From IMG/VR virus record IMGVR_UViG_3300036985_002287, positions 30,613 to 94,612 of that record: a stretch of 64,000 nt of DNA; one strand, 5' to 3'. The notes beneath the pieces were generated by a model that had not been told where the DNA came from, did not search any database, and saw only the letters and a list, made by a program, of their open reading frames with translations. How positions within the stretch are numbered: the first letter of the stretch is position 1; every line of letters starts with the position of its first letter. This document shows positions 13,799-49,985 of the stretch, one piece after another. Origin of the DNA: a virus (lineage: Duplodnaviria > Heunggongvirae > Uroviricota > Caudoviricetes). A program made the position numbers and the translations under genes.

Positions 13799-13813
13799 AC
13801 TGTTTAGCTGATA

Positions 13814-16433: not shown

Positions 16434-16907
16434 CTACGGCTCAGACTCTTCGTGTCTTTCGCGATGATGCCTTTCGCATAATGTCTTAGTCCAACCGTCG
16501 CTGCGTGGCTCACCCGGTGCACCGCACATTTCGCATACGCGGAAAGACATAGATTCGGCAAAATCTATATAATTATGCACTTCATCTGATGCACCATTGA
16601 CATAAAATCGCAAGCCACCAAATTTTTCCTTGACTTGCATAATAGTAGGGAGATCCTCTAATGCATCTGCTACTTCCTTTTCGAGTTTAGGAATGTATTC
16701 GGGATCACCCGAAGGAGTTGGGCACTCTAGTGCAAATTTTAGTCGTCTCTTAGCACTTTCTACCCTGTGTGATATTAAACTGCATAAGGTATCAATTATG
16801 CCGGTCCATCCTATCTCTACGCCGAAATAATCGACATTAGCTTTTTCGTATAGGTCGGGCCAGCGTTTAGCTAAATCTTCAAAATGTTGGTCAATATCTG
16901 GAGTCAT
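16434..16907 (-). CDS. hypothetical protein (leaderless)
   Basis: 157 aa; KEKFGGLRFY and CEMCG motifs; ATG 6 nt after TAAAAT. Confidence 0.55.
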   Translation of the reverse strand: MTPDIDQHFEDLAKRWPDLYEKANVDYFGVEIGWTGIIDTLCSLISHRVESAKRRLKFALECPTPSGDPEYIPKLEKEVADALEDLPTIMQVKEKFGGLRFYVNGASDEVHNYIDFAESMSFRVCEMCGAPGEPRSDGWTKTLCERHHRERHEESEP

Positions 16908-16913
16908 GCTATT

Positions 16914-16942
16914 ATTTTAATACCTTATTATGTAACTGTCTA
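16914..16942 (-). promoter_or_regulatory. promoter TAGACA-N17-TAAAAT, 6 nt from ATG
   Basis: tgtcta 16937-16942; atttta 16914-16919. Confidence 0.5.
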
Positions 16943-16997
16943 TACCTTCATACGCTTATATGCGCGAATTTTGTACGCGATTTTGGTGCAGGATTTC

Positions 16998-17032
16998 TAT
17001 TTTAAAATCCAAATCCCAAATTTAAATCTGAG
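16998..17032. promoter_or_regulatory. 35-nt conserved intergenic element, copy A
   Basis: tattttaaaatccaaatcccaaatttaaatctgag; 31/35 identical to 43391-43425. Confidence 0.6.
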
Positions 17033-17034
17033 AT

Positions 17035-17283
17035 TCAAATCTCGGATTCGTAATTAGGATCGTTGGTCTTACCTTCTTTACAATGTAGCCGACTAATTCT
17101 CTCTGCTGTTGCTGCTAGGCGAACAAAGAGTAATTCATACTTAGATAAGGATACAATATACCCTAATTTATTCTCTCGATCACTTTTCACAACCGATTCT
17201 ATCTTCATGTTCGCTCTACTAAGAAAGCTATGTAATTCTTTTTCCTGATCTTGTGTGATGTCTATTCTATATTTATTTCTCAT
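17035..17283 (-). CDS. hypothetical protein
   Basis: 82 aa ORF. Confidence 0.5.
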   Translation of the reverse strand: MRNKYRIDITQDQEKELHSFLSRANMKIESVVKSDRENKLGYIVSLSKYELLFVRLAATAERISRLHCKEGKTNDPNYESEI

Positions 17284-17633
17284 CGTAACTGGATTCCTTT
17301 TAGTTTTTCAGCCAGCACGTTAGGGTCCGATAAGTCTTCACTACCAGTATGTACTGTAATCTTAATCGTATGCTGATCATTTATTCGTTTTTCTTCTGCT
17401 AACTCTTCTTCAGTGCGTTCACGCCGAATCTTTACCGTCTTCATACCTAACCGGAATGTCAGTGCAGATTCCGCATCCATATCTATAATAGTCTGCCTAT
17501 TTGATGTCCGTAAATTTTCAGTGTCGACTGGATGAATTTCTTCTACCACACTGTATTCGTCGTCATCCAATCTTCCTAAGATTCTACGGAATTTAGTTTC
17601 TTCTTCTGCATCTATTGTAAATGTATATTTCAT
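17280..17633 (-). CDS. hypothetical protein
   Basis: 117 aa ORF; ATGA overlaps. Confidence 0.5.
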   Translation of the reverse strand: MKYTFTIDAEEETKFRRILGRLDDDEYSVVEEIHPVDTENLRTSNRQTIIDMDAESALTFRLGMKTVKIRRERTEEELAEEKRINDQHTIKITVHTGSEDLSDPNVLAEKLKGIQLR

Positions 17634-17869
17634 GTTATTTCCTGTTCGTTATTAACTATGCCCATTATAGGACAAGACAATTTTAGTGCAACCAAGTCAT
17701 TCCTGGTTGCTTTTATCGAATACATTGCTGTCAGCATTCCTGATCCGGAGCCTTCATGCCCTGGTATAAGATCGTAAGATATTGCCTTATGAATTATATC
17801 ATTAGCAGTCAAATATTCCTCTAGCACTGTCGAGTCTTCAAATTTTATTCTAACAAATGATCCACTCAT
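17630..17869 (-). CDS. hypothetical protein
   Basis: 79 aa ORF. Confidence 0.5.
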   Translation of the reverse strand: MSGSFVRIKFEDSTVLEEYLTANDIIHKAISYDLIPGHEGSGSGMLTAMYSIKATRNDLVALKLSCPIMGIVNNEQEIT

Positions 17870-18084
17870 ACCATGTGATCCCTGAAGGTTCCTGCGGGGT
17901 ATTTTAATTTAAGAACTATTTCTAATTCCTCATCGTCAACACAGAATACAAATTGTGTAAGCGGTCCTACTCCTCTAGGATCTATCTCTATTTTTCTAAA
18001 TATAGGCACTCCTACCTCTTCTTTTAACCATTTTTCCTTCATCTGCGCTATTGACGAGATGCATGTATAAGACATAATTCGCAT
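17866..18084 (-). CDS. hypothetical protein
   Basis: 72 aa ORF. Confidence 0.5.
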   Translation of the reverse strand: MRIMSYTCISSIAQMKEKWLKEEVGVPIFRKIEIDPRGVGPLTQFVFCVDDEELEIVLKLKYPAGTFRDHMV

Positions 18085-18845
18085 TATACGCCCTTTATTA
18101 GTTGTAGCATATCGGGAATTCTAGTATGTGAATTCTTACTCCCTAACAATATATACATTCGTTTCCCTACATCAGAATTTAATATCATTACAAGACACCC
18201 TCCTGCTGGATTAGTAAATCCAGTTTTAGATAATTGTATATCAAACTGCGATGTTAGTGGATTCGTATTATGTAATTTAATCAATCTCTTATTTGTCCGT
18301 ATTTCGGCATTAGGCTGACCCGATATTTCACTAATTGTATTATTTAATGTAGCCACCATTAACAATTTCAATAAATCATGTGCTGTGCTAACATTGCCTT
18401 TATCTAATCCGGTGGGTTCTTGATATCGGGTGCTTGTCATTCCTAACTCTGCTGCCTTATCATTCATTTTCTCTACACAAGATGGCAAGTTGATACATAA
18501 TATTTGTGCTGCGAAATTATCCGATCTAACAAGTGCTAGTGTCAATAATTCACGTCTAGATAGATTATGTGTTGTCCTCGGTATGCTACTTTGTACTTGA
18601 CGCTTATTGGGTATAGATAAAGCTTCGGTCAAGTCTTGTTCGGACGAAAGAAGCGCAACCATTAATTTACTGATACTTGCTATAGGGCGTATTGTATCGC
18701 CGTCTTGTTCTTTCAGTATTGTGCCATCCTCTGTAGCCACAATATAACTTTTCGAACTAAAGGGTATTACTCGATGATTGCCTTTGGCCGCAGCATTACT
18801 TATGAGAAGAGCAGATGCACATATAGCTAGAATAAGAGTCTTCAT
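18084..18845 (-). CDS. secreted D-alanyl-D-alanine carboxy/endopeptidase (S11, PBP5/7-like)
   Basis: Signal peptide; SISK (SxxK), SDN, KTG active-site triad motifs in correct order. Confidence 0.75.
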   Translation of the reverse strand: MKTLILAICASALLISNAAAKGNHRVIPFSSKSYIVATEDGTILKEQDGDTIRPIASISKLMVALLSSEQDLTEALSIPNKRQVQSSIPRTTHNLSRRELLTLALVRSDNFAAQILCINLPSCVEKMNDKAAELGMTSTRYQEPTGLDKGNVSTAHDLLKLLMVATLNNTISEISGQPNAEIRTNKRLIKLHNTNPLTSQFDIQLSKTGFTNPAGGCLVMILNSDVGKRMYILLGSKNSHTRIPDMLQLIKGV

Positions 18846-28980: not shown

Positions 28981-29186
28981 ATATTACCTCTTCCTATTCT
29001 GCTGTAACCTAACTCACTCATTGTGTCACGCCGACCTTCTCGCTTGTCGTTTTCGTATTGTTGAATGACAAGCATGGCAAACTTTTCCAATTCTGATTCA
29101 CTAAAATTCCAGGGCTGTTTATGGTACTTTTCATAATCTCTTTGCCCGCCGGCCTTAAGAGTAAGTTGTCGAATTCGTTCATTCAT
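28977..29186 (-). CDS. MNE-paralog family member (divergent)
   Basis: MNERIRQLTLKAGG...KFAMLVIQQ; ATGAATGA junction with upstream paralog. Confidence 0.5.
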   Translation of the reverse strand: MNERIRQLTLKAGGQRDYEKYHKQPWNFSESELEKFAMLVIQQYENDKREGRRDTMSELGYSRIGRGNI

Positions 29187-29397
29187 CACTAACTCCAAAA
29201 TGTTCTAAAATAGAAGGCCGGACTAATCTTGCCTCACCGTGTGTCGCTGCATGATTACCAATGTCAGCACACTCCTGCACGATAAGTTCGGCAAACTTAC
29301 CAAGTTGGATCATGGCGAACTGATTGTCACCTTCTTGTGTGTGCTTGTCTGCATACGCATAGGCTTGCTTTTGCAGGGCTAAAAGTCGTTCATTCAT
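29179..29397 (-). CDS. MNE / FAELIVRE / HFGV paralog
   Basis: MNERLLALQKQ...FAELIVQECA...EHFGVSDE. Confidence 0.55.
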   Translation of the reverse strand: MNERLLALQKQAYAYADKHTQEGDNQFAMIQLGKFAELIVQECADIGNHAATHGEARLVRPSILEHFGVSDE

Positions 29398-29600
29398 TCT
29401 TCAACTCCGAAATGTTTAAACATCGCAACTACCCCTTCATGATCGTGCCCGCAAAACTCACCACATTCCCGAACAATCAACTCGGCGAACTTTTTCATCA
29501 CAGTAGAGTCCAGAGTATCTTTTGGATCGTACATATACACAGCATCACCCCACACGGCAATACCAGCCTGTTCAGCAAGTAGTCGAATTCGTTCGTTCAT
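29394..29600 (-). CDS. MNE / FAELIVRE / HFGVEE paralog
   Basis: MNERIRLLAEQAGI...FAELIVRECG...KHFGVEE. Confidence 0.55.
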   Translation of the reverse strand: MNERIRLLAEQAGIAVWGDAVYMYDPKDTLDSTVMKKFAELIVRECGEFCGHDHEGVVAMFKHFGVEE

Positions 29601-29770
29601 TCTTCTACTCCAAAGTGTTGTTTAATCACCAACTTATATTCAAGCGCCCGTGGATCAATTGGCGGCTCTACTTTTTCATGAACTAGTTGGTGTCTACCTT
29701 CAGTGTTTGTTACACCAAGTAATACACCATTATGATATACTTCCCATTCGTATCTATTTTCGTCAATCAT
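29597..29770 (-). CDS. 57-aa protein sharing only the HFGVEE tail
   Basis: MIDENRYEWEVYHNG...KQHFGVEE; ATGA overlaps at both ends; below track cutoff. Confidence 0.45.
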   Translation of the reverse strand: MIDENRYEWEVYHNGVLLGVTNTEGRHQLVHEKVEPPIDPRALEYKLVIKQHFGVEE

Positions 29771-29982
29771 TCTTCTACTCCAAAGTGTTCTCTTATAATC
29801 TCTGCACCAGAAATACCGTAATCATTAACACGCAGGTTTTTAACTTGTTCGGCACATTCCCGAACAATAAGTTCGGCAAACTTTTCTTGTTGTTCTACCC
29901 ACGCTTCACAATATTCTCTGCCGTGAAAATCTAAAAACTTAATATCAGCCTGCGTGGCAAGTTCTTTAATTAGTTCATTCAT
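29767..29982 (-). CDS. MNE / FAELIVRE / HFGVEE paralog
   Basis: MNELIKELATQADI...FAELIVRECA...EHFGVEE. Confidence 0.55.
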   Translation of the reverse strand: MNELIKELATQADIKFLDFHGREYCEAWVEQQEKFAELIVRECAEQVKNLRVNDYGISGAEIIREHFGVEE

Positions 29983-30193
29983 GCTTCGGCTCCAGACTAC
30001 CGCGTTCTAACCAAAGCGCAATGGCATTGTTGGATGTGTGGGATACATGTTCAATCCCTTTACTATCCACAAAAATAATGTCTTTACCGTCAAACTTTAG
30101 GTGACCATTCTCTGGTCCGATGATCATGTCATACGAATCATTGTGTGTCAGAAAACCTAACACAACGGGCCGCAGGATTGTATATTCATTCAT
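29975..30193 (-). CDS. small protein with EPKHE tail
   Basis: MNEYTIL...SLEPKHE; ATGAATGA junctions. Confidence 0.5.
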   Translation of the reverse strand: MNEYTILRPVVLGFLTHNDSYDMIIGPENGHLKFDGKDIIFVDSKGIEHVSHTSNNAIALWLERGSLEPKHE

Positions 30194-30425
30194 GCTTCGG
30201 CTCCCGAGGGTCTTTGAAATACAATTTTTGATAATCAGGTGTAGATTTACCCAATGGTTGGATCATTGGTAATGTTCCGCCCAATTCAATTACTTGCCTA
30301 CGCAACTCTGTTATTTCTTCTAAAGAAGCCAGGTATAATGTGTCCCATGGCTTACCGTAGTTCAACGCATTTTCCAATACAGGCACAATGTCCTGGTCTC
30401 TGATTTGTTTTACTTGTTCATTCAT
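30186..30425 (-). CDS. small protein with EPKHE tail
   Basis: MNEQVKQIRDQ...PREPKHE; start trimmed to the MNE ATG. Confidence 0.5.
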   Translation of the reverse strand: MNEQVKQIRDQDIVPVLENALNYGKPWDTLYLASLEEITELRRQVIELGGTLPMIQPLGKSTPDYQKLYFKDPREPKHE

Positions 30426-30624
30426 GCTTCGGCTCCACACCCTCTGGGTTTAACAGTTGAAAACAAAAATACTCCTCGCAATCGCTGCCAGGATCTCTCT
30501 TTTCTTTATGCAGGCGACACCAACCATCGCCGGTGTAGCAACCTTCAGCATCACCGTTGAAGTTATAGTAAGCACAGTGGTCACAGCAAGTGAACCCTGG
30601 AGCGCAATCAGGACATAGTTTCAT
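30418..30624 (-). CDS. Cys-rich small protein with EPKHE tail
   Basis: MKLCPDCAPGFTCCDHCAYY...GVEPKHE; N-terminal extension of track ORF displaced by 30626-30802. Confidence 0.5.
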   Translation of the reverse strand: MKLCPDCAPGFTCCDHCAYYNFNGDAEGCYTGDGWCRLHKEKRDPGSDCEEYFCFQLLNPEGVEPKHE

Positions 30625-32926: not shown

Positions 32927-33152
32927 GTGGATTAAGGTTACTTTTGAAATGGTTGTTTACTACAGAAGCAAAATATTCTCGACGATATCGGTCTTTGGTC
33001 ATAATAACATCGGAGCATTCTTTAACAATTAATCTAGCAAATTCTTCTAATGCTTCTTCAGGGCAAATTACATAAGCAGGTGCTGACCCAGATACTACTC
33101 GAACGAACGGTATACCGGCCTGTTCGGCAAGTTGTTTCAGTTGTTCATTCAT
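32916..33152 (-). CDS. MNE-paralog family member
   Basis: MNEQLKQLAEQAGIPF...FARLIVKECS. Confidence 0.5.
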   Translation of the reverse strand: MNEQLKQLAEQAGIPFVRVVSGSAPAYVICPEEALEEFARLIVKECSDVIMTKDRYRREYFASVVNNHFKSNLNPLDN

Positions 33153-34200: not shown

Positions 34201-34452
34201 TCATTCTTCAACTCCAAAATGTCCTTCGAGTGTTCTTATCGCAACGAGTAACCCATCGTCGAATGCTCGATCATACACTTGACCAGCGGTGCCAACTTTG
34301 ATCGCTCTTACTTCTTCAATTTGATTAATACTTTCACGAATGATTAATTCTGCGAATTTTCTGTAGTCAAAATCACGTAACCCCTCGTGATCGCTTCCAT
34401 AAGGGGCAATCAATCCAGCTTTTCTTGCTAGGTCTCTCGTAATATCAATCAT
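34201..34452 (-). CDS. MNE / FAELIIRE / HFGVEE paralog
   Basis: MIDITRDLARKAGL...FAELIIRES...GHFGVEE; start trimmed. Confidence 0.5.
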   Translation of the reverse strand: MIDITRDLARKAGLIAPYGSDHEGLRDFDYRKFAELIIRESINQIEEVRAIKVGTAGQVYDRAFDDGLLVAIRTLEGHFGVEE

Positions 34453-37439: not shown

Positions 37440-37705
37440 TCTTTAATTCCCCATACTTTCTTTGTAGCTTCTAATGTAAATGCACCACTCGTTGTAATGC
37501 GAGTTAAAAAATCTTCCTCTTCCTGTGTTAGTACGGGAATCGGTCTAATCTCATACCAAAATTCGTAAGAATCGTTTTTACCGAAATCTTCCTCTTGTCT
37601 TGCACACTTATCGCAAAATGGATGATCGCCCGCAAACTGAGTTGAACGAATCCATACAGTGGGAGCATTGCATATTATACAAAATTCCTCTTTTATTTTT
37701 GTCAT
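37436..37705 (-). CDS. small zinc-ribbon-like protein
   Basis: 89 aa; CIIC...CDKC. Confidence 0.5.
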   Translation of the reverse strand: MTKIKEEFCIICNAPTVWIRSTQFAGDHPFCDKCARQEEDFGKNDSYEFWYEIRPIPVLTQEEEDFLTRITTSGAFTLEATKKVWGIKE

Positions 37706-37980
37706 TCTTCAACTCCGAAGTGTTCACTAATGCTATCTCTGATTGTTTGGGCAGTATCATCATTATCCCAATTAAACTCCAATGCGTTCTTATGTTCTTG
37801 GTGGACAATACCCAAACATTCCCGAACAATAAGTTCGGCGAACTTTTCCGGGCTAAACTTAGTTTCGGTAGTAGTTACATAACGATAAGGCGGCCGATCA
37901 TTATCCCATGCACCCGAAATTTCCCGAGTTTCGATTGTGATAATAGATTGTTTTTCAAGTTCTTGCAGTCGTTTATTCAT
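37702..37980 (-). CDS. MNE / FAELIVRE / HFGVEE paralog
   Basis: MNKRLQELEKQ...FAELIVRECL...EHFGVEE; start trimmed (ATGA overlap). Confidence 0.5.
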   Translation of the reverse strand: MNKRLQELEKQSIITIETREISGAWDNDRPPYRYVTTTETKFSPEKFAELIVRECLGIVHQEHKNALEFNWDNDDTAQTIRDSISEHFGVEE

Positions 37981-42399: not shown

Positions 42400-42672
42400 T
42401 TACAACGAGTCGCTTACACTAGGTCGACGCTTAACAACATTGACCTGTTCAAGAAGCGCCTGGTATTCTGCTGGGTGTGAACGCCAATATACTACGCAGG
42501 ATTTCTGGGGGCGTTCGACGTAATGATTGAATAGGATTTCTTGGCGTTTCGGATGGATTTCATGCTGAAGGCACCCGGGGACTGGATAATATTTCCAGCA
42601 GAGTTTCTGATGTTTTGTCATTTTCTCGCCACCTAATCTGGCCTTCATAGCATAGTAGGTCCTTAAGTGCAT
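42400..42672 (-). CDS. hypothetical protein
   Basis: 90 aa ORF. Confidence 0.5.
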   Translation of the reverse strand: MHLRTYYAMKARLGGEKMTKHQKLCWKYYPVPGCLQHEIHPKRQEILFNHYVERPQKSCVVYWRSHPAEYQALLEQVNVVKRRPSVSDSL

Positions 42673-43322
42673 TATTTGTATCCACGTCTACCTTCACCAA
42701 ACGCCTTAGGGGTCGAATTATCGTTTGCATTCCAGCGTCTCATTGCTTCCATGTTGGCATCCGAATCTGCAGTGAAATCACCCGTACCATCGAATTCTTC
42801 TAACGCTACATTTCTGCATACTTCCATAAACCACTGATTAACAATGCTATCTGGAGTCAGCCCTTCATAACCTTCTTTCTTAAGATTCTCTACAAACAAC
42901 TCATTCCAATCTAATTCGAAGCTACCTTCTAATGATTTCTTTCCACCAAAGTCCATGCTTAATACAGTTACCCATGGCTCACCTTTTAATGTAGCAGTTT
43001 GTTTGCCGTGTTCGAGTTCGGTAATCTTTCCTTGTTCCTTTTTAAGGTTCAACAATGCTTGTTTTCTTTCACCGTCGTCTTTAATGAGTGTTAGAAGTAA
43101 GTGATCATATTCGTCCTTGTCTATTACACCTCTTCTTAATTCCAGATCATTAAATCGTTTAAAATAAGTATCCTCGTCGAGCTCGTCTTTGGATAACTCG
43201 AGTAATTTCCGCTCTAATTCGAACCCTGATAATTCATACTCAGCTCTGGCTCGCTCTCTTGTTTTTCCGGCCATCCCCCATGTAAATGGCAATAATGAAA
43301 AGGGTATTAATTTTTTTGACAT
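42672..43322 (-). CDS. hypothetical protein
   Basis: 216 aa ORF downstream of palindrome-rich control region. Confidence 0.55.
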   Translation of the reverse strand: MSKKLIPFSLLPFTWGMAGKTRERARAEYELSGFELERKLLELSKDELDEDTYFKRFNDLELRRGVIDKDEYDHLLLTLIKDDGERKQALLNLKKEQGKITELEHGKQTATLKGEPWVTVLSMDFGGKKSLEGSFELDWNELFVENLKKEGYEGLTPDSIVNQWFMEVCRNVALEEFDGTGDFTADSDANMEAMRRWNANDNSTPKAFGEGRRGYK

Positions 43323-43341
43323 CGTTATTCCTGTGTATAGG

Positions 43342-43365
43342 TAGAAAATTTACGTAAATTTTCTA
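43342..43365. promoter_or_regulatory. 24-nt perfect palindrome (operator-like)
   Basis: TAGAAAATTTACGTAAATTTTCTA equals its own reverse complement. Confidence 0.7.
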
Positions 43366-43368
43366 GGT

Positions 43369-43384
43369 TCAGATTTTAATCTGA
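43369..43384. promoter_or_regulatory. 7-2-7 inverted repeat
   Basis: TCAGATT-TT-AATCTGA. Confidence 0.6.
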
Positions 43385-43390
43385 GAATGA

Positions 43391-43425
43391 TATTTTAAAA
43401 TCCAAATCTGAAATGTAAATCTGAC
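43391..43425. promoter_or_regulatory. 35-nt conserved intergenic element, copy B
   Basis: tattttaaaatccaaatctgaaatgtaaatctgac; 31/35 identical to 16998-17032; carries AATCTGA repeats. Confidence 0.6.
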
Positions 43426-43437
43426 TTTGATATTCCA

Positions 43438-44340
43438 TTATGCCATGCTTACATATAAATGCTGTTGTAGGTTCAGCTTGAATCCATGATCAAGACAGTA
43501 TTTACCTGTGTATTCGTGATTACGTTGATTTTCTACTAAGTTTAATAATCCAGGTTCCCAGAAAGAAATTACCTCATCTACTGTAGATCGTTCTGCCATT
43601 GTGATCTCACCTTTCTCTGCTCGAAGTAATTTAATCTTCTGCGGAAAGTCATTATATACATTCATAGGGGAACAATAGATTTCTTTCTCCGGATTAAGTC
43701 TTTTCCATTCGTGTGCCCATTCCGGGACTGTGCTATATGGACTTACCGGGTCCGCACTCATTACAAACTTAAGGCAGTCGGCCCGCTTAAGAATCATATC
43801 AGTCGGTGCTAAATACTTTGTTGCTACACCGTTCTTTTCCGAACACTTGGGAGAACATACAACAGTGACGTGACTGGCTATATATGGATTGCTTATTGTG
43901 CCATTAGTTTCGATTTGAATTGCCTTAAATACCGGTTCAACACTATCCATAAAACCTAATAAATTAGATTGCAACATCGGCTCGCCACCCGTGATAACTA
44001 AGACAATGTTCGGCCAATGGAAGCTTGGCTGTGGCCGAGGGAAACGAGTCATTGCCCACTCCGGCGGCACTTCTGGCGGTGTCCGTGTAGCCCAATAATT
44101 ACGAATAGTATCAAATGCCTTATGCTGAATTTCATCATATGTCATCCATGTACCGTCATCAAAGAAAGTATCGCAGAAAGAACATGCTAGGTTACACTTT
44201 GCTAATCTGATGAATAGTGCAGGTAGACCAGCATAGGGTCCTTCTCCTTGCAACGTAAAGAACATACTTGTAACATACAAGCTGCCTTTAGGTGCTTTAT
44301 CAAAAAATTTCTTGCCAATTATTGTATTAGTTCCGAACAT
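43438..44340 (-). CDS. queE: 7-carboxy-7-deazaguanine synthase (QueE-like radical SAM)
   Basis: LQGEGPYAGLPALFIRLAKCNLACSFCDT is the QueE N-terminal signature. Confidence 0.7.
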   Translation of the reverse strand: MFGTNTIIGKKFFDKAPKGSLYVTSMFFTLQGEGPYAGLPALFIRLAKCNLACSFCDTFFDDGTWMTYDEIQHKAFDTIRNYWATRTPPEVPPEWAMTRFPRPQPSFHWPNIVLVITGGEPMLQSNLLGFMDSVEPVFKAIQIETNGTISNPYIASHVTVVCSPKCSEKNGVATKYLAPTDMILKRADCLKFVMSADPVSPYSTVPEWAHEWKRLNPEKEIYCSPMNVYNDFPQKIKLLRAEKGEITMAERSTVDEVISFWEPGLLNLVENQRNHEYTGKYCLDHGFKLNLQQHLYVSMA

Positions 44341-44516
44341 TATTCTTTATCCTCGAATTTAACAAGTTTAACTCTGACGCCTTCAAATTCATTATCGAAC
44401 GCAACAGTGACAACTTCCAAAACTTCTTCACAGCCTGTTACGCCACGATCATTTATGTCATTCCAGAACTCATCATCGCCTTCTTCTATAACAAATTCGA
44501 ATATGTATCTTTTCAT
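44340..44516 (-). CDS. 58-aa acidic protein
   Basis: MKRYIFEFVIEEGDDEFWNDINDRG...; AAGGA SD, own promoter, TAATG junction with queE; below track cutoff. Confidence 0.5.
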   Translation of the reverse strand: MKRYIFEFVIEEGDDEFWNDINDRGVTGCEEVLEVVTVAFDNEFEGVRVKLVKFEDKE

Positions 44517-44534
44517 ATATAGTCCTTATCTGTT

Positions 44535-44563
44535 ATTATAGCGATTTTCGATATGTAAGTCAA
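44535..44563 (-). promoter_or_regulatory. promoter TTGACT-N17-TATAAT
   Basis: agtcaa 44558-44563; attata 44535-44540. Confidence 0.65.
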
Positions 44564-44576
44564 GTCACCTATCGAA

Positions 44577-44900
44577 TTATACACCAGATGAGTCGCCCCA
44601 TGTATGCATATATTTAGATAGTCTTATCATCTTATTAACACGGGCTTTTTCTATACCAGAAGCGGTAACACCGAGATTCGCGTTAGTAACCATATCTACC
44701 AACGCCAATACATCTCCTAATTCCATTTCTAAATTTTCAAGATTAGTTGTTGTAGAAGCAGGGTTCTTACCCACTACACCAAATCGTTTAATTTTAGATG
44801 CTGCCTGAATTACTTCGGCACATTCTTCCTGAAGAATATTAAGACATTCTTCCTGATGATCATTTACTTGTTTCAAATTTTTTCTCCCAATTCCATGCAT
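44577..44900 (-). CDS. MazG-like nucleotide pyrophosphohydrolase
   Basis: CLNILQEECAEVIQAASKIKRFG...ELGDVLALV: EExxE/D helices of the small all-alpha MazG family. Confidence 0.6.
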   Translation of the reverse strand: MHGIGRKNLKQVNDHQEECLNILQEECAEVIQAASKIKRFGVVGKNPASTTTNLENLEMELGDVLALVDMVTNANLGVTASGIEKARVNKMIRLSKYMHTWGDSSGV

Positions 44901-45828
44901 GTGATATAATATCTTTTATATTATATTGAGGTTCCCAATGTAATATATTCTTAGCCTTATCTATACATGCCGTCAATATTGCAGGATCTCCTTTGCGAGG
45001 TGCAACATATTCATATATAGGCTCTTTACCAACTACTTCACCTGCATATTTAACTAGCTCTGTTAAACTTATGCCACCGGTACCACCACCTAAGTTAAAT
45101 ATTTCATTACTGAAACCGGCATTAAGGAATTCTATCGCCTGTACGTGACCTTCTGCTAAGTCAGACACATGAATATAGTCCCTAACACAAGTTCCGTCTT
45201 TTGTAGCATAGTTGTTACCGAATATTTGAAATACTTCATTATTCATTATTTTATTACATATAATAGGAATAACATGAGTAGCAGGGCGCTGTGTATATCC
45301 GAATCGACATTCTGGATCAGCACCTGCGGCATTAAAATATCTAAATGTGATATACTTGATACCATATGCTCTTGCATAATCCCTGATCATTAATTCTCCT
45401 GCTGTCTTTGACGATGCATAGGAATTTTCTGGATCATAATACATATCTTCTTTTAGATATAGAGCTCTGCCTTGCCTACCATATAAATTTCCGGTAGAAC
45501 TAAAGACGATATTTTTTATGCCTATAGCGACCATATGATCGAGCATAACCTGCATTTTTACCACATTATTCGTGTAATATTTAGCCGGCTCTGACAGGCT
45601 TTGCGGCACAATATGCTCCGCTGCCAGATGCACTATTGTATCAAATTTAGTTGTATTTGTTTTAATGAAGTCACAATAATCTGATTCAATAACTTCGCCT
45701 GGACCATTCCAGTTCTGTGTATTCTTATCCACAATAGTAATTTTGTGACCTTCTTCGTGTAATTTATATACTACTTGCGTACCTATAAATCCACAGCCTC
45801 CGGTAACTAGAATATTATGTCTTCTCAT
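44860..45828 (-). CDS. NAD-dependent sugar-nucleotide epimerase/dehydratase (GalE-like SDR)
   Basis: VTGGCGFIGTQV Rossmann, YASSKTAGE (YxxxK). Confidence 0.8.
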   Translation of the reverse strand: MRRHNILVTGGCGFIGTQVVYKLHEEGHKITIVDKNTQNWNGPGEVIESDYCDFIKTNTTKFDTIVHLAAEHIVPQSLSEPAKYYTNNVVKMQVMLDHMVAIGIKNIVFSSTGNLYGRQGRALYLKEDMYYDPENSYASSKTAGELMIRDYARAYGIKYITFRYFNAAGADPECRFGYTQRPATHVIPIICNKIMNNEVFQIFGNNYATKDGTCVRDYIHVSDLAEGHVQAIEFLNAGFSNEIFNLGGGTGGISLTELVKYAGEVVGKEPIYEYVAPRKGDPAILTACIDKAKNILHWEPQYNIKDIISHAWNWEKKFETSK

Positions 45829-46202
45829 TAGTTGGGAAAATATTCTAATATTCCACCATTAATATTATCTTCGTAAATCTCTACCTTAATGTATCTACCT
45901 TCATACCTGTATCGAATTTTATCGATAAGCTGTTCTGCTAACATCTCACAGCTCATATAGTCCATTTTTAGTTCTTCCACATATAAGGATTCCAGCCATC
46001 GTCTAAACTGAATGAATTCTATATCACGATTGTTCTGGAATACTTCCACAGTTACAACAAAGTAAAAATAGTGGAAGTGTTCGTGTCCTAAGAAAGATAC
46101 ATCATCCCACTTACCCGTCTTTAAGGTAGGATCTGTTAATGCTTCCGGATACCTATGTGTACCTTCTTTAGTAAATTTTACGTTTATATATCGCTTAATC
46201 AT
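45828..46202 (-). CDS. queD: 6-carboxytetrahydropterin synthase (QueD / PTPS-like)
   Basis: FTKEGTHRYP...LGHEHFHYFYFVVTVE...SCEMLAEQL aligns by eye with E. coli QueD FEAAHRLP...LHGHSFMVRLEI...TSEVLAKW. Confidence 0.65.
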   Translation of the reverse strand: MIKRYINVKFTKEGTHRYPEALTDPTLKTGKWDDVSFLGHEHFHYFYFVVTVEVFQNNRDIEFIQFRRWLESLYVEELKMDYMSCEMLAEQLIDKIRYRYEGRYIKVEIYEDNINGGILEYFPN

Positions 46203-46357
46203 ACAATCTCTTCGATAATACCTAATATCTCTGCAACTACAATCATTGTACCTGCAAAAAACAGATTTCCTGCAGCAAGACTACATCCTGCCACAATGCG
46301 TAATGCGCTCTTAACGAAACTAATTCGTTGATGTAATTTAGGATCTGGCTGTCTCAT
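46199..46357 (-). CDS. 52-aa hydrophobic peptide
   Basis: MRQPDPKLHQRISFVKSALRIVAGCSLAAGNLFFAGTMIVVAEILGIIEEIV; ATGA overlaps on both sides; below track cutoff. Confidence 0.45.
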   Translation of the reverse strand: MRQPDPKLHQRISFVKSALRIVAGCSLAAGNLFFAGTMIVVAEILGIIEEIV

Positions 46358-47142
46358 TTCTTAGCCTTTACTGTTTTCGGTTCTTTCGCAGATAGCGGGT
46401 CTTTCGTAGTACCAGCCGTATATGCTTCAACTGCATCATTAGTAGTCTGAATAGTACTCGTTTTGATGGTCTGGATTTGCGTTTCTTCATCTTCCGGTTT
46501 CAGTTGTGATTTAGCGTCTGGATCAAGTCCTAACTCTGCTTGATTCTTTACATCGCTCAATGGCTTATTTAGCGCCTGTTTGGGCTGCTCTGTTGTAATA
46601 ATAACATCATCTACATATTCACTCCAACTTGTGAAGCGATTGCTATCCGTTACTTCATGATGATTCATACACCATACACCGGGATTTGTTGCACCAAAAT
46701 TAATATCATCAATCTTAATTGTTAAATTAATGTTGGATGTATTTACGTGTGGAATTGCAACACTGAGCACCGGTACAAAGTTTCTGGATTGCCATACATC
46801 CTGATTCAAAATATTAAGTACCATAGCATGTTTATGTGCTGGATAATCTAAAGATACCATAAATCCTGCATTAAGCAAGAACAAGATTTGTTTATCCCAA
46901 TCAGAAGCCAGTGTGTTACCGACCATATACTTTCCGTTTACCATGTCGACAGAATCAAAAGATCTGTTAGCACTCAAGAAGATGTGCTTGACTCCATACT
47001 TTTTAGCATGATCCAAGATAGTTTGTGTATCTTGTAGTCCTACCACAAATAATGTCTTCTTGTTAAATGCAGGTGTCTGCTCAATTTCGGGGCCTACAAA
47101 AAATGTTACGCCTTCATGACCTTTTCTTACAAATTCGCTCAT
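46354..47142 (-). CDS. hypothetical protein in modification cluster
   Basis: 262 aa; no motif recognised; Pro/Lys-rich C-terminal tail. Confidence 0.55.
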   Translation of the reverse strand: MSEFVRKGHEGVTFFVGPEIEQTPAFNKKTLFVVGLQDTQTILDHAKKYGVKHIFLSANRSFDSVDMVNGKYMVGNTLASDWDKQILFLLNAGFMVSLDYPAHKHAMVLNILNQDVWQSRNFVPVLSVAIPHVNTSNINLTIKIDDINFGATNPGVWCMNHHEVTDSNRFTSWSEYVDDVIITTEQPKQALNKPLSDVKNQAELGLDPDAKSQLKPEDEETQIQTIKTSTIQTTNDAVEAYTAGTTKDPLSAKEPKTVKAKK

Positions 47143-47143
47143 A

Positions 47144-48232
47144 TTATTTCCTTAATAATTGGTTTATTAAACCGTATGCTGTGAAGTATTCCTTCAGTAA
47201 ATGCGGGGCCAACCTGCCCTTAGTATCCTTACTAATAATATCATATTGACCCATAGTATTCTTTATCAAAGTTATAATATCGGTCTTATGTTTATAATAG
47301 TTTTCCATGCTACTTGTCCACTCATCTGGATATAAGTATCTTACGTCATACATCTCACTATAACTCAATCTATCAGGTAATAAAGGTATGACACCTAGTA
47401 ATGCACCTTCGAACGGACTTATACCTAATGTTTCTTGTAAATTAGCCGACCACATAATCTTCGACTTAGCTAATAATTTATGATATTCTTGCTTTGTTAG
47501 CTTATTATCCTGGCACACAACAAATTTATACTCGGGTAGTGATTCTGCCAGATCTCTAAATATCTCTACCTGCTTTTCGGGTGCAAGACGATGCGGGAAA
47601 ATAATGATATCTTCTTTTTCGCTAGTATCATATTCCTTAAACAGGTCGGGCATATATTCCATAGGCCATCCGGTGCCTATAATTTTCTTCGACTGAATAT
47701 CATCCAGCATATTGGTACCTAACAGATTCAACATAAACATCTCTATGTGAAAATCCGTAGCAAAATAATTATGATCGAATGAATGGTAGAAGCTACGCTC
47801 TGCATTTCTTACCCACGCAGCAGGTCCTATCAATCTGCCCAGGAAATCGTATGCATCATAACTTCCTGCATGCCACATTCCGTGCAGTGTCCAATTATGC
47901 CCCAACAAGTCATTCATATATCTTAGTTGAACAACAGTGGGATTCCACGCATCTGTAAATAAAAAATGATCGTCGGGTGTTACCTTACCGCTATTATAGA
48001 ATTCTATCCAGTTACACAACTGCGAACTTTTCCAATAATTAGTATCCGAGAAGTTTAAGAACGCACCCGGAGTGACTTGTGTATTTTTTTGAATTCCATC
48101 CACTTGAACAATGTTGAATTTATGTCCGCATTGTTTTTCTAACATAGCAGGAACACGACTGTGCCATTGTCCCGTATATCGCGTCTCTATGGGCTCTATA
48201 CTAAAAATCCAGATTGTCGGTTTTACTTCCAT
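47144..48232 (-). CDS. GT-B-type glycosyltransferase
   Basis: C-terminal QETLGISPFEGALLGVIPLL (E-x7-E-like) and overall two-Rossmann layout. Confidence 0.55.
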   Translation of the reverse strand: MEVKPTIWIFSIEPIETRYTGQWHSRVPAMLEKQCGHKFNIVQVDGIQKNTQVTPGAFLNFSDTNYWKSSQLCNWIEFYNSGKVTPDDHFLFTDAWNPTVVQLRYMNDLLGHNWTLHGMWHAGSYDAYDFLGRLIGPAAWVRNAERSFYHSFDHNYFATDFHIEMFMLNLLGTNMLDDIQSKKIIGTGWPMEYMPDLFKEYDTSEKEDIIIFPHRLAPEKQVEIFRDLAESLPEYKFVVCQDNKLTKQEYHKLLAKSKIMWSANLQETLGISPFEGALLGVIPLLPDRLSYSEMYDVRYLYPDEWTSSMENYYKHKTDIITLIKNTMGQYDIISKDTKGRLAPHLLKEYFTAYGLINQLLRK

Positions 48233-49125
48233 TCAATATATCCTCTAGAATAATTTTGCGGCCTATTAAGCCCCTCATCAAATGCTAGTTTAACTTCTGT
48301 CTCCCTATCATATGACTTTGTCCATAACCCGCTTACATCCAAATCGCCATATCTTAGCAGTTCTTCTGCTAATACCATTGCACTGTAGAATGATTCGTTT
48401 CTCGGACTTGGAAACTTCACATCCACTGCGTTCCAGAGGAACTGTGAGAACGATGTTACTGCTGGCGGATGCTTTTCTGCAGCAAGTACAATTGTAGCAC
48501 GTTCCTTATAAACATTCAAGTTTAGATACTCTGGTTTATCAGATAAGTCTATGATATATTCGAAGCCTTTATTCTGGACATCTTTTAATTGTTTTACTTC
48601 TGCATTATTCTGTTTTGACCAGAAATCTTTGTTGGCTTCGCCGACTACAACTACTTTATTTTCCCAATATCTATCGAGTATTGTATAAACAACTGTTGCT
48701 AAAAATCCTGTACCTAACAATAAAATATCTGCATTTGTAGTCGGCACTATACTCTTTGCAATGTTAATGCCGCAAGCGATAGGTTCTAAAATAAATCTAG
48801 GATTACAATCAGGCACCTTAACAAACATCTTATCCGGGCAGTTATAATAATCAGCAAATGCTGGTTCTCCGCGAGTACCAACATAGTCGCCTTCCTTAAC
48901 AGTTGATATATCTTTACCTACCTTAGTAACTACACCCAGACTTTCGTGTCCTTGTATAGTCTTGGGTAGCATCTGAAATGTACCACAATACATATCGATG
49001 TCAGAACGACAAACACCTGTATAGATAGACTTTACTTCGATCTCATTTGATTTGGGTTCAGGTTTATTCCATTCTTCCTCTATGATGTCTTTGTTGCCTG
49101 TAGTATAGAAAAGTCTTGTCTTCAT
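48223..49125 (-). CDS. zinc-dependent medium-chain dehydrogenase/reductase
   Basis: GVCRSDIDMY (catalytic Cys) and GHESLG motifs. Confidence 0.7.
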   Translation of the reverse strand: MKTRLFYTTGNKDIIEEEWNKPEPKSNEIEVKSIYTGVCRSDIDMYCGTFQMLPKTIQGHESLGVVTKVGKDISTVKEGDYVGTRGEPAFADYYNCPDKMFVKVPDCNPRFILEPIACGINIAKSIVPTTNADILLLGTGFLATVVYTILDRYWENKVVVVGEANKDFWSKQNNAEVKQLKDVQNKGFEYIIDLSDKPEYLNLNVYKERATIVLAAEKHPPAVTSFSQFLWNAVDVKFPSPRNESFYSAMVLAEELLRYGDLDVSGLWTKSYDRETEVKLAFDEGLNRPQNYSRGYIEWK

Positions 49126-49985
49126 TAAAATCTCTCCAAAAATCTATGAATTTCTAAATCCAATGAATAGCTATCGGATGTATTTGTTAACATTTTACCG
49201 TATGCTTCTGCGGGACATAATCCAAACACCCATTCATATGTTGTGCCGTCTTTAAAATACAAAGTGATAGATTGTTTATCATACCCTTCTTTCCATGCGG
49301 CATATAATTTTACAGAAATTCCGTCTATTGTTGCAATTGCAAATGCTGTATCATCTACGTCATATACACCGTTAGGATAAACTGTTCCATAATCTGTAGA
49401 AGAGATTGACGAGAGATCCCATCTCTGATAACTAGATTGTTTAAATACCGATTTCTTTACAGTATCTTCACCAAATAATTTTACAGCAAAACAATACAGG
49501 TGTGGCATTAAATCTCGGGAGATACCTCCAAAGGAAGAATCCTTATCTGTAAACCAACTACCGGGATTAGGAATACGATTATCATTTATCCAATTAATGT
49601 CGACGCCTATTACTTTTTTGCTTCGCATTAATTCCAATACATCGCCATAACTATCTCTGTACAAGTTATTTTTTACTAAATGGAATGTTGTGTTGGTATA
49701 CTTATATTTAAGTCGACTCCATGCCCATGAATCTACAAGGCCCGGCTTCTCTACGAAGATTTGTTTTGTACCTGTCTCTGCCAATCTTTCTGCGATAGGT
49801 CCGTGCGTAAAATTGGGTGTACAAATTACTGCTATATCGTATGCTTTGTTGATTTCCGATGCATCTTTATATATCGCATTATCTGTTCTTGCATCTAATA
49901 CATCTATATCATAACCTAACTTTTGTAATTCGGGCCAATAGACGTTAGCGCCTATTCCACCGAACCCTGCCAATAATGCCTTCAT
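49125..49985 (-). CDS. Gfo/Idh/MocA-family oxidoreductase
   Basis: N-terminal MKALLAGFGGIGANVY Rossmann, ICTPNFTH, FVEKP. Confidence 0.6.
   Translation of the reverse strand: MKALLAGFGGIGANVYWPELQKLGYDIDVLDARTDNAIYKDASEINKAYDIAVICTPNFTHGPIAERLAETGTKQIFVEKPGLVDSWAWSRLKYKYTNTTFHLVKNNLYRDSYGDVLELMRSKKVIGVDINWINDNRIPNPGSWFTDKDSSFGGISRDLMPHLYCFAVKLFGEDTVKKSVFKQSSYQRWDLSSISSTDYGTVYPNGVYDVDDTAFAIATIDGISVKLYAAWKEGYDKQSITLYFKDGTTYEWVFGLCPAEAYGKMLTNTSDSYSLDLEIHRFLERF

What the first reader, a model, noticed from the sequence alone, without database searches (positions are those of the whole stretch)
43323..43437. 115-nt intergenic control hub: 24-nt perfect palindrome, 7-2-7 inverted repeat and a 35-nt element shared with a second locus
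The spacer between queE and the next gene contains three kinds of element.
- TAGAAAATTTACGTAAATTTTCTA (43342-43365) is a perfect 24-nt palindrome.
- TCAGATT-TT-AATCTGA (43369-43384) is an inverted repeat.
- A 35-nt element (43391-43425) is 31/35 identical to 16998-17032, which lies upstream of gene 16434-16907.

The shared element carries reiterated AATCTGA / GATTT units and a TTTTAAAATA box. Neither locus shows a good TTGACA -35 associated with this element. This looks like operator and activator sites, or a phage-specific (non-sigma70-type) promoter class used at both loci.
Basis: seen in the sequence. Interest (0 to 1): 0.55.

Follow-up and report, generated by a model that had tools for sequence, protein, structure and literature searches.

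The report
Conserved 13-bp repeat array at phage promoter
The spacer holds a weak bacterial-type promoter embedded in evenly spaced TCAGATTT repeats, followed by two RNA hairpins; the repeats belong to a previously undescribed DNA element that is conserved upstream of the same few genes in a clade of uncultured giant T4-like phages and probably binds an unknown regulatory protein.

Summary
The 24-nt perfect palindrome (43342-43365), the 7-2-7 inverted repeat (43369-43384) and the 31/35 match to 16998-17032 are all present. The match extends to 62 nt at 74% identity.

All genes here lie on the minus strand. Read on that strand, the spacer runs in this order:
- stop codon of a QueE-like radical-SAM gene;
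- two TCAGATTT units 13 bp apart, overlapping a sigma70-like TTTACA-N16-TAAAAT;
- a third TCAGATT at the predicted transcript start, forming hairpin 1;
- the palindrome, forming hairpin 2;
- AGGA, then the ATG of a 216-aa gene.

The shared element belongs to a family of at least 47 distinct copies in viral and metagenome contigs. The copies are 13-bp-periodic arrays: TCAGATTT units followed by AATCYTGCAC units that resemble their reverse complement. They are intergenic and co-oriented with the downstream gene. Two or three copies were found per genome in an uncultured T4-like jumbo-phage clade.

There is no RNA covariation, no Rfam hit and no cultured relative.

My best reading (confidence about 0.5) is an iteron-like binding-site array for an unidentified clade-specific DNA-binding protein that controls a sigma70-type promoter. 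On this reading the hairpins are lineage-specific 5'-UTR structures. A T4 oriE-like origin role is not excluded.

The parts
43438..44340 (-). Upstream gene: 300-aa QueE-like radical-SAM protein; its stop codon TAA is at 43438-43440
   Evidence: ORF. phrog_2076 'QueE-like radical SAM domain' at 1.7e-47. NCBIfam QueE models score 45-72 bits, below their 200-300-bit cutoffs. Its neighbours are sugar-modifying enzymes, not queC/queD.
43417..43424 (-). Type-A unit 1, TCAGATTT; its last three bases are the first three of the -35 hexamer
   Evidence: Sequence. The motif is conserved in the family.
43414..43419 (-). -35-like hexamer TTTACA
   Evidence: Promoter scan gives a 10/12 match. TTTACA, TTTATA or TTTTCA/G sits in the same register in L321, L002, L008 and L009.
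43402..43411 (-). Type-A unit 2, TCAGATTTGG. It starts 13 bp after unit 1 and lies in the promoter spacer (about -26 to -17).
   Evidence: Sequence. CAGATTTGG lies at the homologous position in L002, L008, L009, L013 and L021 and is invariant in the alignment of win1, L002, L321 and L009.
43392..43397 (-). -10-like hexamer TAAAAT. It lies within the palindromic centre TTTTAAAA (43393-43400) of the 56-nt dyad.
   Evidence: The family consensus at this position is T(A/C/T)(A/G)AATAG, 7 nt after ...TTTGG.
43369..43384 (-). Type-A unit 3 (TCAGATT, 17 nt after unit 2) plus its inverted copy. This is the 7-2-7 repeat and forms hairpin 1 at the predicted 5' end of the transcript (predicted start about 43383-43386).
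   Evidence: RNA fold gives -5.2 kcal/mol, z = -4.6. The third TCAGATT sits at a fixed 17-nt distance in win1, L002, L321 and L009. The hairpin is kept and lengthened in L002. The transcript start is inferred, not mapped.
43342..43365 (-). 24-nt perfect palindrome, forming hairpin 2 of the 5' UTR (10-bp stem, ACGU loop)
   Evidence: Fold gives -6.3 kcal/mol, z = -5.7, 0 of 200 shuffles as stable. L002 has a different 6-bp hairpin (AAAGUU/AACUUU) at the same place, 3 nt after hairpin 1. The exact core occurs elsewhere only in the sister contig and in one unrelated contig.
43329..43332 (-). Shine-Dalgarno AGGA, 6 nt before the ATG
   Evidence: Sequence. AGGAA or GGAAA lies before the ATG in all relatives of the 216-aa gene.
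42672..43322 (-). Downstream gene: 216-aa protein with no Pfam domain; PHROG 13349, annotated 'virion structural protein'
   Evidence: 38% identical to homologues in PA5oct-type phages.
16979..17040 (-). Second copy of the array (win2): GAGATTTGAATCTC, TCAGATTT, a degenerate unit GGGATTTGG, and TTTAAA-N16-TAAAAT. Type-B units AAATCCTGCACC / AAAATCGCGTAC / AAAATTCGCGCA continue down to about 16955.
   Evidence: (D7). Orthologous copies lie upstream of homologues of the 157-aa gene.
16914..16942 (-). Proximal leaderless-type promoter of the 157-aa gene, TAGACA-N17-TAAAAT, ending 6 nt before the ATG at 16907
   Evidence: The same CTATAGAC / TTGACn ... TATAAT arrangement is seen in relatives.
16434..16907 (-). 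157-aa gene (p157), the usual downstream partner of the array. It has a conserved CxxC...C..H motif and no known function.
   Evidence: AF2 model has pLDDT 92.9 with no PDB fold match.

Best explanation
The spacer is an internal transcription-control region for the 216-aa gene. It is built around one copy of a clade-specific, iteron-like DNA element.

Shown by the analysis.
- On the coding strand, two TCAGATTT units 13 bp apart overlap the -35 hexamer and fill the spacer of a sigma70-like TTTACA-N16-TAAAAT.
- A third TCAGATT lies 17 nt further on.
- Two stable hairpins (the 7-2-7 repeat and the 24-nt palindrome) follow, then AGGA and the ATG.
- The TCAGATTT array is a member of a family of 13-bp-periodic arrays conserved, intergenic and co-oriented, upstream of a few genes in an uncultured jumbo T4-like phage clade.

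Inferred.
- The repeats are binding sites for an unidentified sequence-specific DNA-binding protein. It is most likely phage-encoded, because the motif is clade-specific and both units changed together in one lineage.
- Sites over -35, the spacer and +1 would let that protein occlude or remodel host RNA polymerase at this promoter, giving temporal control.
- At the p157 locus the same array lies upstream of a separate leaderless early promoter.
- Transcripts starting about 7 nt after TAAAAT would begin at hairpin 1. Together with hairpin 2 this gives a structured 5' end that may stabilise the mRNA or tune translation.
For: Promoter hexamers lie on the coding strand. -35-like and -10-like hexamers sit in the same register in L002, L321, L008 and L009.

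The motif is conserved at orthologous sites in loci retrieved by protein homology, not by motif.
- For the 216-aa gene, CAGATTTGG lies 80-130 nt upstream in 6 lineages.
- For p157, all 3 distinct lineages from the IMG/VR scan have it. All 5 sampled homologues at 52-66% identity carry it in canonical, variant or partial form; both sampled at 46-48% identity, which come from a different phage group, lack it.

There are 47 distinct canonical copies. In 44 of them the core lies outside any ORF of 80 aa or more. Unit spacing is 13 bp in 55/78 type-A intervals and 63/68 type-B intervals. Unit number varies (2-4 exact CAGATTT, 0-4 type-B units).

In L368 both units read TGAGATTT, a concerted change.

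There is no conserved RNA structure in 12 p157-type copies: -2.5 kcal/mol and no covarying pairs. There are no Rfam hits.

The pentamer cluster is unique in the window.

The 115 nt are identical in a sister contig, where the 216-aa gene differs at about 2 per 100 nt and the QueE-like gene at 10-40 per 100 nt.

The two-hairpin arrangement is kept in L002 with different sequence.
Against: No transcript start, binding protein or expression data exist; the phage is uncultured.

The promoter match alone is at chance level for this AT-rich DNA: 10 matches found against 9.6 expected in 3 kb.

In most p157-type copies the central box is TCAAAT, TTGAAT or CTAAAT, which lacks the key A at position 2 of a sigma70 -10. 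The internal promoter is therefore not a family-wide feature.

There is a strong early promoter at 44563->44535 and no terminator between it and the spacer. Read-through could therefore express the 216-aa gene without any local promoter.

Neither candidate neighbour looks like a DNA binder. p157 has a confident model with no known fold match. The associated small-protein family has a generic ferredoxin/PII-like fold.

Much of the apparent invariance in the large set comes from the exact-pattern scans used to collect it.

Identity with the sister contig is only mildly significant against the 216-aa side (my estimate is P about 0.08).
Confidence: 0.5

Rival explanations
1. Replication-origin-like element. 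The evenly spaced direct repeats are iterons. They flank an AT-rich centre next to an early-type promoter, as at T4 oriE, or at phage and plasmid origins where the same iterons occur at two loci. The promoter or bound initiator opens the AT-rich centre.
For: - The repeats are evenly spaced at 13 bp and variable in number.
- Opposed orientation of type-A units and type-B units (which resemble the reverse complement of A) around an AT-rich centre; this is my reading.
- Two or three canonical copies were found per genome.
- The array is adjacent to an early-type promoter.
- win1 lies about 1 kb upstream of the RNase H/FEN gene, inside the replication module.
Against: - There is no GC-skew inflection or strand switch at either locus.
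- win1 is only about the 15th least stable 100-bp window, and win2 is unremarkable.
- No initiator gene has been identified.
- The role of the T4 oriE repeats themselves is undefined.
- The fixed orientation relative to a downstream gene, and placement over -35/+1 at win1, look more like transcription control.
Confidence: 0.17
2. Recombination or module-boundary cassette in the manner of PeSLs. The conserved sequence mainly serves as a patch of homology where unrelated genes are swapped, and any promoter activity is secondary.
For: - Divergence from the sister contig jumps exactly at the spacer, from about 2 per 100 nt on the 216-aa side to 10-40 per 100 nt on the QueE-like side.
- The site upstream of the 216-aa gene is occupied in relatives by different genes: a 70-aa ORF, an endonuclease-like ORF, or others.
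- The same element precedes at least three unrelated gene families.
- PeSLs are composite promoter/terminator motifs that mediate such shuffling in T4-like phages (PMC4122927).
Against: - PeSLs are numerous in hyperplastic regions and consist of a terminator stem-loop followed by an early promoter. Here only two or three copies were found per genome, the hairpins lie downstream of the promoter, and no terminator is detected.
- The strict 13-bp periodicity and the concerted unit change are not explained by a homology-patch role.
Confidence: 0.1
3. RNA-level element. The repeats act in the polycistronic mRNA as binding sites for a translational regulator or as processing sites. The AGGAA-containing type-B units act as decoy or standby ribosome sites.
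For: - There is no terminator upstream, so the array is probably transcribed by read-through.
- Type-B units contain AGGAA/GGAAU, and in 15 copies the last one abuts the ATG of a small gene with no other SD or promoter.
- The win1 hairpins are clearly RNA-like in their conservation.
Against: - Direct repeats without covarying pairs give no structural support.
- The dyad symmetry of whole arrays and the overlap with the -35/-10 hexamers point to duplex DNA.
- No Rfam family matches.
Confidence: 0.1
4. Decaying remnant. The array is what is left of the 5' end of a lost small gene and has no present function. In some relatives that small gene is the 70-aa ORF beginning MNIPAEF..RVYKTRFSGL, whose first codons are element-like DNA.
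For: Element-like DNA (CCTGCAGAATTT..CCGAGTTT..CCAGATTT) encodes the N-terminus of a real small ORF in L004, L005, L010, L014, L020 and L022, with synonymous Arg codons (my reading).
Against: - The array is kept in several lineages and at a second, unrelated locus.
- The CAGATTT motif falls in different reading frames (ACC AGA TTT in L010, CCA GAT TTG in L009).
- A 13-nt period cannot be a coding repeat.
- There are 47 distinct copies upstream of other genes.
Confidence: 0.05

Closest known systems
Bacteriophage T4 oriE iteron cluster
   Same: A cluster of evenly spaced short direct repeats (12 nt in T4, 13 bp here) in a T4-type genome, next to an early-type promoter, and conserved at syntenic positions in relatives (PMC3016281).
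   Different: There is no sequence similarity. Here the repeats lie upstream of or over the promoter, in two opposed sets, and occur at two or three loci per genome. Origin activity is untested here, and the function of the T4 repeats is itself undefined.
PeSL cassettes of T4-like phages (promoter-early stem-loop)
   Same: A conserved intergenic cassette combining a sigma70-type promoter with stem-loops, repeated within a genome and lying at a mosaic boundary (PMC4122927).
   Different: A PeSL is a terminator stem-loop followed by a strong early promoter, in many copies. Here no terminator is detected, the hairpins lie downstream of a weak promoter, the defining feature is a 13-bp repeat array, and only 2-3 copies were found per genome.
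Repeat-array operators and iterons of plasmid and phage regulators (for example omega heptads, MetJ met-boxes, P1 RepA iterons); cited from my own knowledge
   Same: Short units in variable number and mixed orientation, overlapping or just upstream of a promoter, often next to the regulator's own gene.
   Different: No cognate protein has been identified. The neighbours tested do not show ribbon-helix-helix or winged-helix folds. A 13-bp spacing is unusual for those systems.
T4 middle (MotA-dependent) promoters
   Same: A sigma70-type -10 combined with a phage-specific upstream box that replaces a good -35 (described in PMC3016281).
   Different: The MotA box TGCTTtA at -30 is absent. The conserved box here is TCAGATTTGG at about -26 to -17, together with further repeats. 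Only two sites occur in 64 kb.
5'-terminal stem-loop mRNA stabilisers (E. coli ompA, T4 gene 32 leaders); cited from my own knowledge
   Same: A hairpin predicted at the very 5' end of the transcript, followed by a second hairpin ahead of the SD.
   Different: The transcript start is only predicted. The hairpins are AU-rich and weak (-5 and -6 kcal/mol) and are present only in the window, sister-contig and L002 lineage.

Membership tests
Sigma70-type bacterial promoter | -35 and -10 hexamers close to TTGACA / TATAAT with a 16-18-nt spacer, on the strand of the downstream gene | tested here: met
   TTTACA-N16-TAAAAT, a 10/12 match, on the minus strand at 43419->43392. The number of such matches in the region equals the shuffle expectation, so this is necessary but not sufficient.
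Sigma70-type bacterial promoter | Hexamers conserved in orthologous regions | tested here: inconclusive
   They are kept in the copies upstream of the 216-aa gene (L002, L321 weakly, L008, L009). In most p157-type copies the box is TCAAAT, TTGAAT or CTAAAT, which lacks A at position 2.
Sigma70-type bacterial promoter | Mapped transcription start | not testable with these tools
   There are no transcript data for this uncultured phage.
T4 middle (MotA) promoter | MotA box (a/t)(a/t)(a/t)TGCTTtA centred at -30 | tested here: not met
   The sequence from -35 to -25 is TTTACATTTCA, with no TGCTT.
T4 late (gp55) promoter | TATAAATA at -10 | tested here: not met
   The box here is TTAAAATA (6/8). 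True (T)ATAAATA motifs occur before other genes in the window.
PeSL cassette | Terminator-like stem-loop immediately upstream of a strong early promoter; many copies per genome | tested here: not met
   No terminator-like site was found in the spacer or at win2. The hairpins are downstream of the promoter. There are two copies in 64 kb.
Intrinsic terminator | GC-rich stem followed by a U tract | tested here: not met
   The scan finds none here. Both stems are AU-rich and are followed by ACC and CCUAUAC.
Iteron-type origin (T4 oriE-like) | Cluster of evenly spaced direct repeats | tested here: met
   Spacing is 13 bp in 55/78 type-A and 63/68 type-B intervals across 47 copies.
Iteron-type origin (T4 oriE-like) | Compositional or strand-bias shift, or an exceptional unwinding element | tested here: not met
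   The cumulative GC skew is monotonic. For 100-bp duplex stability, win1 is about the 15th least stable non-overlapping window and win2 ranks 4863 of 63900 window positions.
Iteron-type origin (T4 oriE-like) | Origin activity or a cognate initiator | not testable with these tools
   No replication data exist and no initiator was recognised among the neighbours.
Known structured RNA (Rfam, including preQ1 riboswitches, considered because of the queE neighbour) | Covariance-model match or covarying helices | tested here: not met
   No relevant Rfam hit at E <= 1 at either locus. RNAalifold on 12 copies gives -2.5 kcal/mol with 0 compensatory pairs.
MITE-like mobile repeat | Terminal inverted repeats with target-site duplications, at non-orthologous insertion sites | tested here: inconclusive
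   An overall imperfect dyad exists. However, the copies sit at orthologous positions across diverged genomes. Target-site duplications were not looked for.

The most novel reading that the evidence does not exclude
The 13-bp-periodic TCAGATTT / AATCYTGCAC arrays are assembly platforms for a new clade-specific DNA-binding protein that polymerises along about 100 bp of DNA at two or three loci per genome. They would act as origins of replication, or as origin-plus-promoter switches analogous to the still unexplained T4 oriE iterons. That would give T4-type jumbo phages a protein-and-iteron initiation mode.
Probability: 0.15. Interest if true: 0.65.

Novelty: new variant of a known kind. Interest (0 to 1): 0.45.

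Why it matters
Regulatory DNA of uncultured jumbo phages is almost unknown. This is a sharply defined element that can be searched for: TCAGATTT-N5-YCAGATTTGG followed by 13-bp AATCYTGCAC units. It marks a small, conserved set of genes across a whole clade.

It offers a handle for three things:
- finding the cognate DNA-binding protein;
- dissecting temporal control, or origin function, in T4-like jumbo phages;
- recognising members of this clade in metagenomes.

If the arrays prove to be origin iterons, they would bear on the long-unresolved role of the T4 oriE repeats.

Tried and rejected
- Near and distant BLAST of the spacer, and of a canonical array, against 50,697 GenBank phage records found no homologous element.
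- Cultured relatives of the flanking proteins are only distant: PA5oct type at 38% and Rak2 type at 25% for the 216-aa protein, and only partial matches for p157.
- Rfam at E <= 1 found nothing relevant at either locus.
- RNAalifold on 12 p157-type copies found no conserved structure.
- Terminator scans found nothing in the spacer or at win2.
- The unwinding-element and GC-skew tests for an origin were unremarkable.
More specific patterns were needed.
- p157 as the binder: the AF2 model has pLDDT 92.9 but no PDB fold match at E <= 0.001. This is uninformative.
- The small adjacent protein family as a ribbon-helix-helix-type binder: the AF2 model (pLDDT 72.5) is beta-alpha-beta-beta-alpha-beta with weak PII/ACT-like matches, so this is not supported.
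- The window's 82-aa ORF has only 2 database homologues.
- An exact search for the palindrome core in IMG/VR found only the sister contig and one unrelated contig, where it sits after the stop codon of a gene. The palindrome is therefore not a repeated site.
- Host-factor consensus sequences recalled from memory (IHF, Fis, DnaA box, sigma54, CtrA, GANTC) do not fit the units. This was checked by eye only.

Full report
**Setting.** The window has 39.8% G+C, and nearly all long ORFs lie on the minus strand. A 982-aa gp43-type DNA polymerase is 38-43% identical to those of Sinorhizobium phage Phosso, Agrobacterium phage Atu_ph07 and Rak2-like phages. This is therefore a T4-like, probably jumbo, phage with no close cultured relative.

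A contig about 92% identical exists in IMG/VR (IMGVR_UViG_3300021602_000003, 166 kb).

The finding lies between two minus-strand genes:
- A 300-aa radical-SAM protein at 43438-44340. It is QueE-like by PHROG but well below the NCBIfam QueE cutoffs.
- A 216-aa protein at 42672-43322, annotated in PHROGs as a virion structural protein.

**Observation.** All three features are present at the stated coordinates.
- The 24-nt palindrome is perfect, unique in the window and absent from all shuffles.
- The 7-2-7 repeat is present.
- The 35-mer matches 16998-17032 at 31/35. The similarity extends to 62 nt at 74%.
- The region holds the largest short-range dyad in the window, a 56-nt imperfect palindrome centred on TTTTAAAA.
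- It holds the only cluster of AGATT/AATCT pentamers in 64 kb.

**Anatomy on the coding strand.** After the TAA stop come, in order:
1. TCAGATTT (43424-43417).
2. TCAGATTTGG, 13 bp later (43411-43402).
3. ATTT, then TAAAAT (43397-43392).
4. Seven bases, then TCAGATT-AA-AATCTGA (43384-43369).
5. ACC, then the palindrome (43365-43342).
6. AGGA (43332-43329), six bases, and the ATG.

TTTACA (43419-43414) and TAAAAT form a 10/12 sigma70-type match with a 16-nt spacer.

The predicted transcript would begin at or within two bases of hairpin 1. The 64-nt leader folds into two hairpins at -12.9 kcal/mol, z = -4.6.

**The shared element is a family.** Relatives were first retrieved by protein homology, not by motif.

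Upstream of the 216-aa gene:
- Six lineages have CAGATTTGG 80-130 nt upstream of the gene.
- The pentamer cluster recurs at the same position in L002, L008, L013 and L017.
- In win1, L002, L321 and L009, CAGATTTGG and a third TCAGATT exactly 17 nt downstream are invariant.

Upstream of homologues of the 157-aa gene that follows the second locus:
- The array is present in all three distinct IMG/VR lineages.
- It is present, in canonical, variant or partial form, in 5 of 5 database homologues sampled at 52-66% identity.
- It is absent from 2 of 2 homologues at 46-48% identity, which sit in a different phage type.

Exact-pattern scans then gave 16 family members among 18 IMG/VR hits. A metagenome scan gave 112 stretches, 95 of them distinct. 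Together these yielded 47 distinct canonical copies.

**Family architecture.** In the direction of the downstream gene:
1. The stop codon of the upstream ORF, often the TGA inside ATCTGA.
2. TTTCCATC.
3. Two to four TCAGATTT units at 13-bp spacing.
4. A box T(A/C/T)(A/G)AATAG, 7 nt after ...TTTGG.
5. Up to four units of the form GGAATCYTGCAC / AAAATCCTGCAC, also at 13-bp spacing. By eye these resemble the reverse complement of the first unit type with one extra base.
6. Usually CCTATAGAC or TTGACN, then N17, then TATAAT, then 5-8 nt, then the ATG.

The last item is a leaderless-type early promoter of the kind seen before nine genes in this window.

The core lies outside any ORF of 80 aa or more in 44 of 47 copies.

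The downstream genes are:
- the p157 family (22 copies);
- a family of 74-92-aa proteins (15 copies);
- singletons.

The exact-pattern scans found two canonical copies in each of the 210-kb and 364-kb contigs. In the 210-kb contig a further, coding, element-like stretch lies at the start of the small ORF upstream of the 216-aa homologue (L005).

In the window, win2 is the p157-type copy. Its second unit is degenerate (GGGATTTGG) and it has its own proximal promoter, TAGACA-N17-TAAAAT. win1 is a shortened copy. It keeps the TCAGATTT units and the central box, but replaces the second unit type and the proximal promoter with the two hairpins and an SD.

**DNA or RNA.** Twelve p157-type copies show no conserved fold: -2.5 kcal/mol and no compensatory pairs. 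Rfam finds nothing relevant.

Three features point to recognition of duplex DNA by a protein:
- direct repeats with strict spacing and variable number;
- overall dyad symmetry;
- a lineage (L368) in which both units read TGAGATTT.

By contrast, the two win1 hairpins behave like RNA structures. L002, whose 216-aa protein is 72% identical, has a longer hairpin 1. Three bases later it has a different 6-bp hairpin 2, AAAGUU/AACUUU in place of UAGAAAAUUU/AAAUUUUCUA. More distant relatives have neither hairpin.

**Mechanism.** I favour a regulated internal promoter, at confidence about 0.5. An unidentified clade-specific protein would bind the 13-bp-spaced units. At win1 the units cover -35, the spacer and +1. 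At p157-type loci they lie upstream of a separate early promoter.

This is inference. The caveats are:
- The hexamer match is at chance frequency for this DNA.
- The -10-like box is poor in most family members.
- Read-through from the strong promoter at 44563 is unobstructed.
- No binder was found. p157 gives a confident model with no fold match. The small-protein family is ferredoxin/PII-like rather than a known DNA-binding fold.

**Rivals.**
- *Origin-like role (0.17).* This is suggested by the resemblance to the T4 oriE cluster of evenly spaced 12-nt repeats beside an early promoter, whose function is still undefined (PMC3016281). Neither GC skew nor duplex stability singles out these loci.
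- *PeSL-like recombination role (0.10).* Divergence from the sister contig jumps at the spacer: 0 mismatches in the spacer, about 2 per 100 nt on the 216-aa side, and 10-40 per 100 nt on the QueE-like side. The genes found at this site also vary among relatives. However, the defining PeSL anatomy is not met (PMC4122927).
- *RNA-level protein binding (0.10).*
- *Decaying gene remnant (0.05).*

The last two are less likely, for the reasons given under the rival explanations.

**Caveat on conservation.** The large copy set was collected with exact patterns, so invariance of the pattern positions in that set is by construction. The unbiased evidence is the homology-retrieved loci.

The element is a new, well-defined member of the broad class of promoter-associated iteron or operator arrays. 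It is conserved in an uncultured jumbo-phage clade, and its function and binder are still to be shown.

Noticed in passing
window, upstream of the ATGs at 5768, 6651, 12102, 15064, 16907, 18845, 39566 and 42348 (minus strand): Nine minus-strand ORFs (these eight plus a weaker, ORF-internal match at 39033) have a near-consensus TTGACA-N16/17-TATAAT whose -10 hexamer ends only 5-9 nt before the ATG, with no Shine-Dalgarno. This implies leaderless or nearly leaderless early mRNAs. Other genes carry T4-late-like (T)ATAAATA boxes.
   Followed up: partly
window 15301-15978 (-): A phage-encoded GGDEF diguanylate cyclase (Pfam GGDEF, 6e-40) with a hydrophobic N-terminal region, two to three genes downstream of p157.
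   Followed up: no
window 18084-18845 (-); also L370 1-600: A D-alanyl-D-alanine carboxypeptidase (Peptidase_S11, 4e-33) encoded by the phage. It is syntenic with the small-ORF array and p157 in a relative.
   Followed up: no
window 17035-18084 (-): Four tandem small ORFs (82, 117, 79 and 72 aa) lie directly upstream of the second array. They are the top window hits, though weak (E 0.007-0.28), of an HMM built from the 74-92-aa proteins that follow the array in other phages. An AF2 model of that family is ferredoxin/PII-like.
   Followed up: partly
L004, L005, L007, L010-L012, L014, L015, L020, L022 (about 200 nt upstream of the 216-aa homologue): A roughly 70-aa ORF (MNIPAEF..RVYKTRFSGL...FETQEDCLAFTLKYG) begins inside element-like DNA with a 13-nt period (CCTGCAGAATTT, CCGAGTTT, CCAGATTT). 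Synonymous Arg codons indicate real coding, so a regulatory repeat appears to be overprinted by, or recruited as, an N-terminus.
   Followed up: partly
window 43323-43500 compared with L087: There is a sharp mosaic boundary with the 92%-identical sister contig: 0 mismatches in the spacer, about 2 per 100 nt in the 216-aa gene, and 10-40 per 100 nt in the QueE-like gene.
   Followed up: partly
window 43438-49985 (-): The 'queE' is only QueE-like (below the NCBIfam cutoffs). It sits with MazG, an NAD-dependent epimerase/dehydratase, an ADH_N protein and a GFO/IDH/MocA oxidoreductase rather than with queC/queD. This may be a sugar or DNA-hypermodification cluster rather than the classical 7-deazaguanine pathway.
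   Followed up: partly
window 29063-30440, 33115-33152, 34201-34230, 37702-37854: Several families of 25-44-nt direct repeats (D1, D3, D4, D5, D8) recur at about 200-400-nt spacing. They look like the conserved ends of tandem paralogous small genes.
   Followed up: no
window 13804-14007 (-), repeats at 13878-13958: A 67-aa Lys/Ala/Pro-rich ORF (...VAKKPAKKVAAKKAAPASAAK) is encoded over GCTGCTGGT-type repeats. It is reminiscent of histone-H1-like or AlgP-like DNA-binding tails.
   Followed up: no
L368 about 1340-1400: In one lineage both 13-bp units read ATCTGAGATTTTT instead of ATCTCAGATTT. This is a concerted change, of the kind expected from co-evolution with a binding protein or from gene conversion between units.
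   Followed up: no
window 16434-16907 (-): p157 belongs to a family of 1250 database homologues, all hypothetical. It gives a confident AF2 model (pLDDT 92.9) with an invariant CxxC...C..H motif, but no PDB fold match at E <= 0.001.
   Followed up: partly
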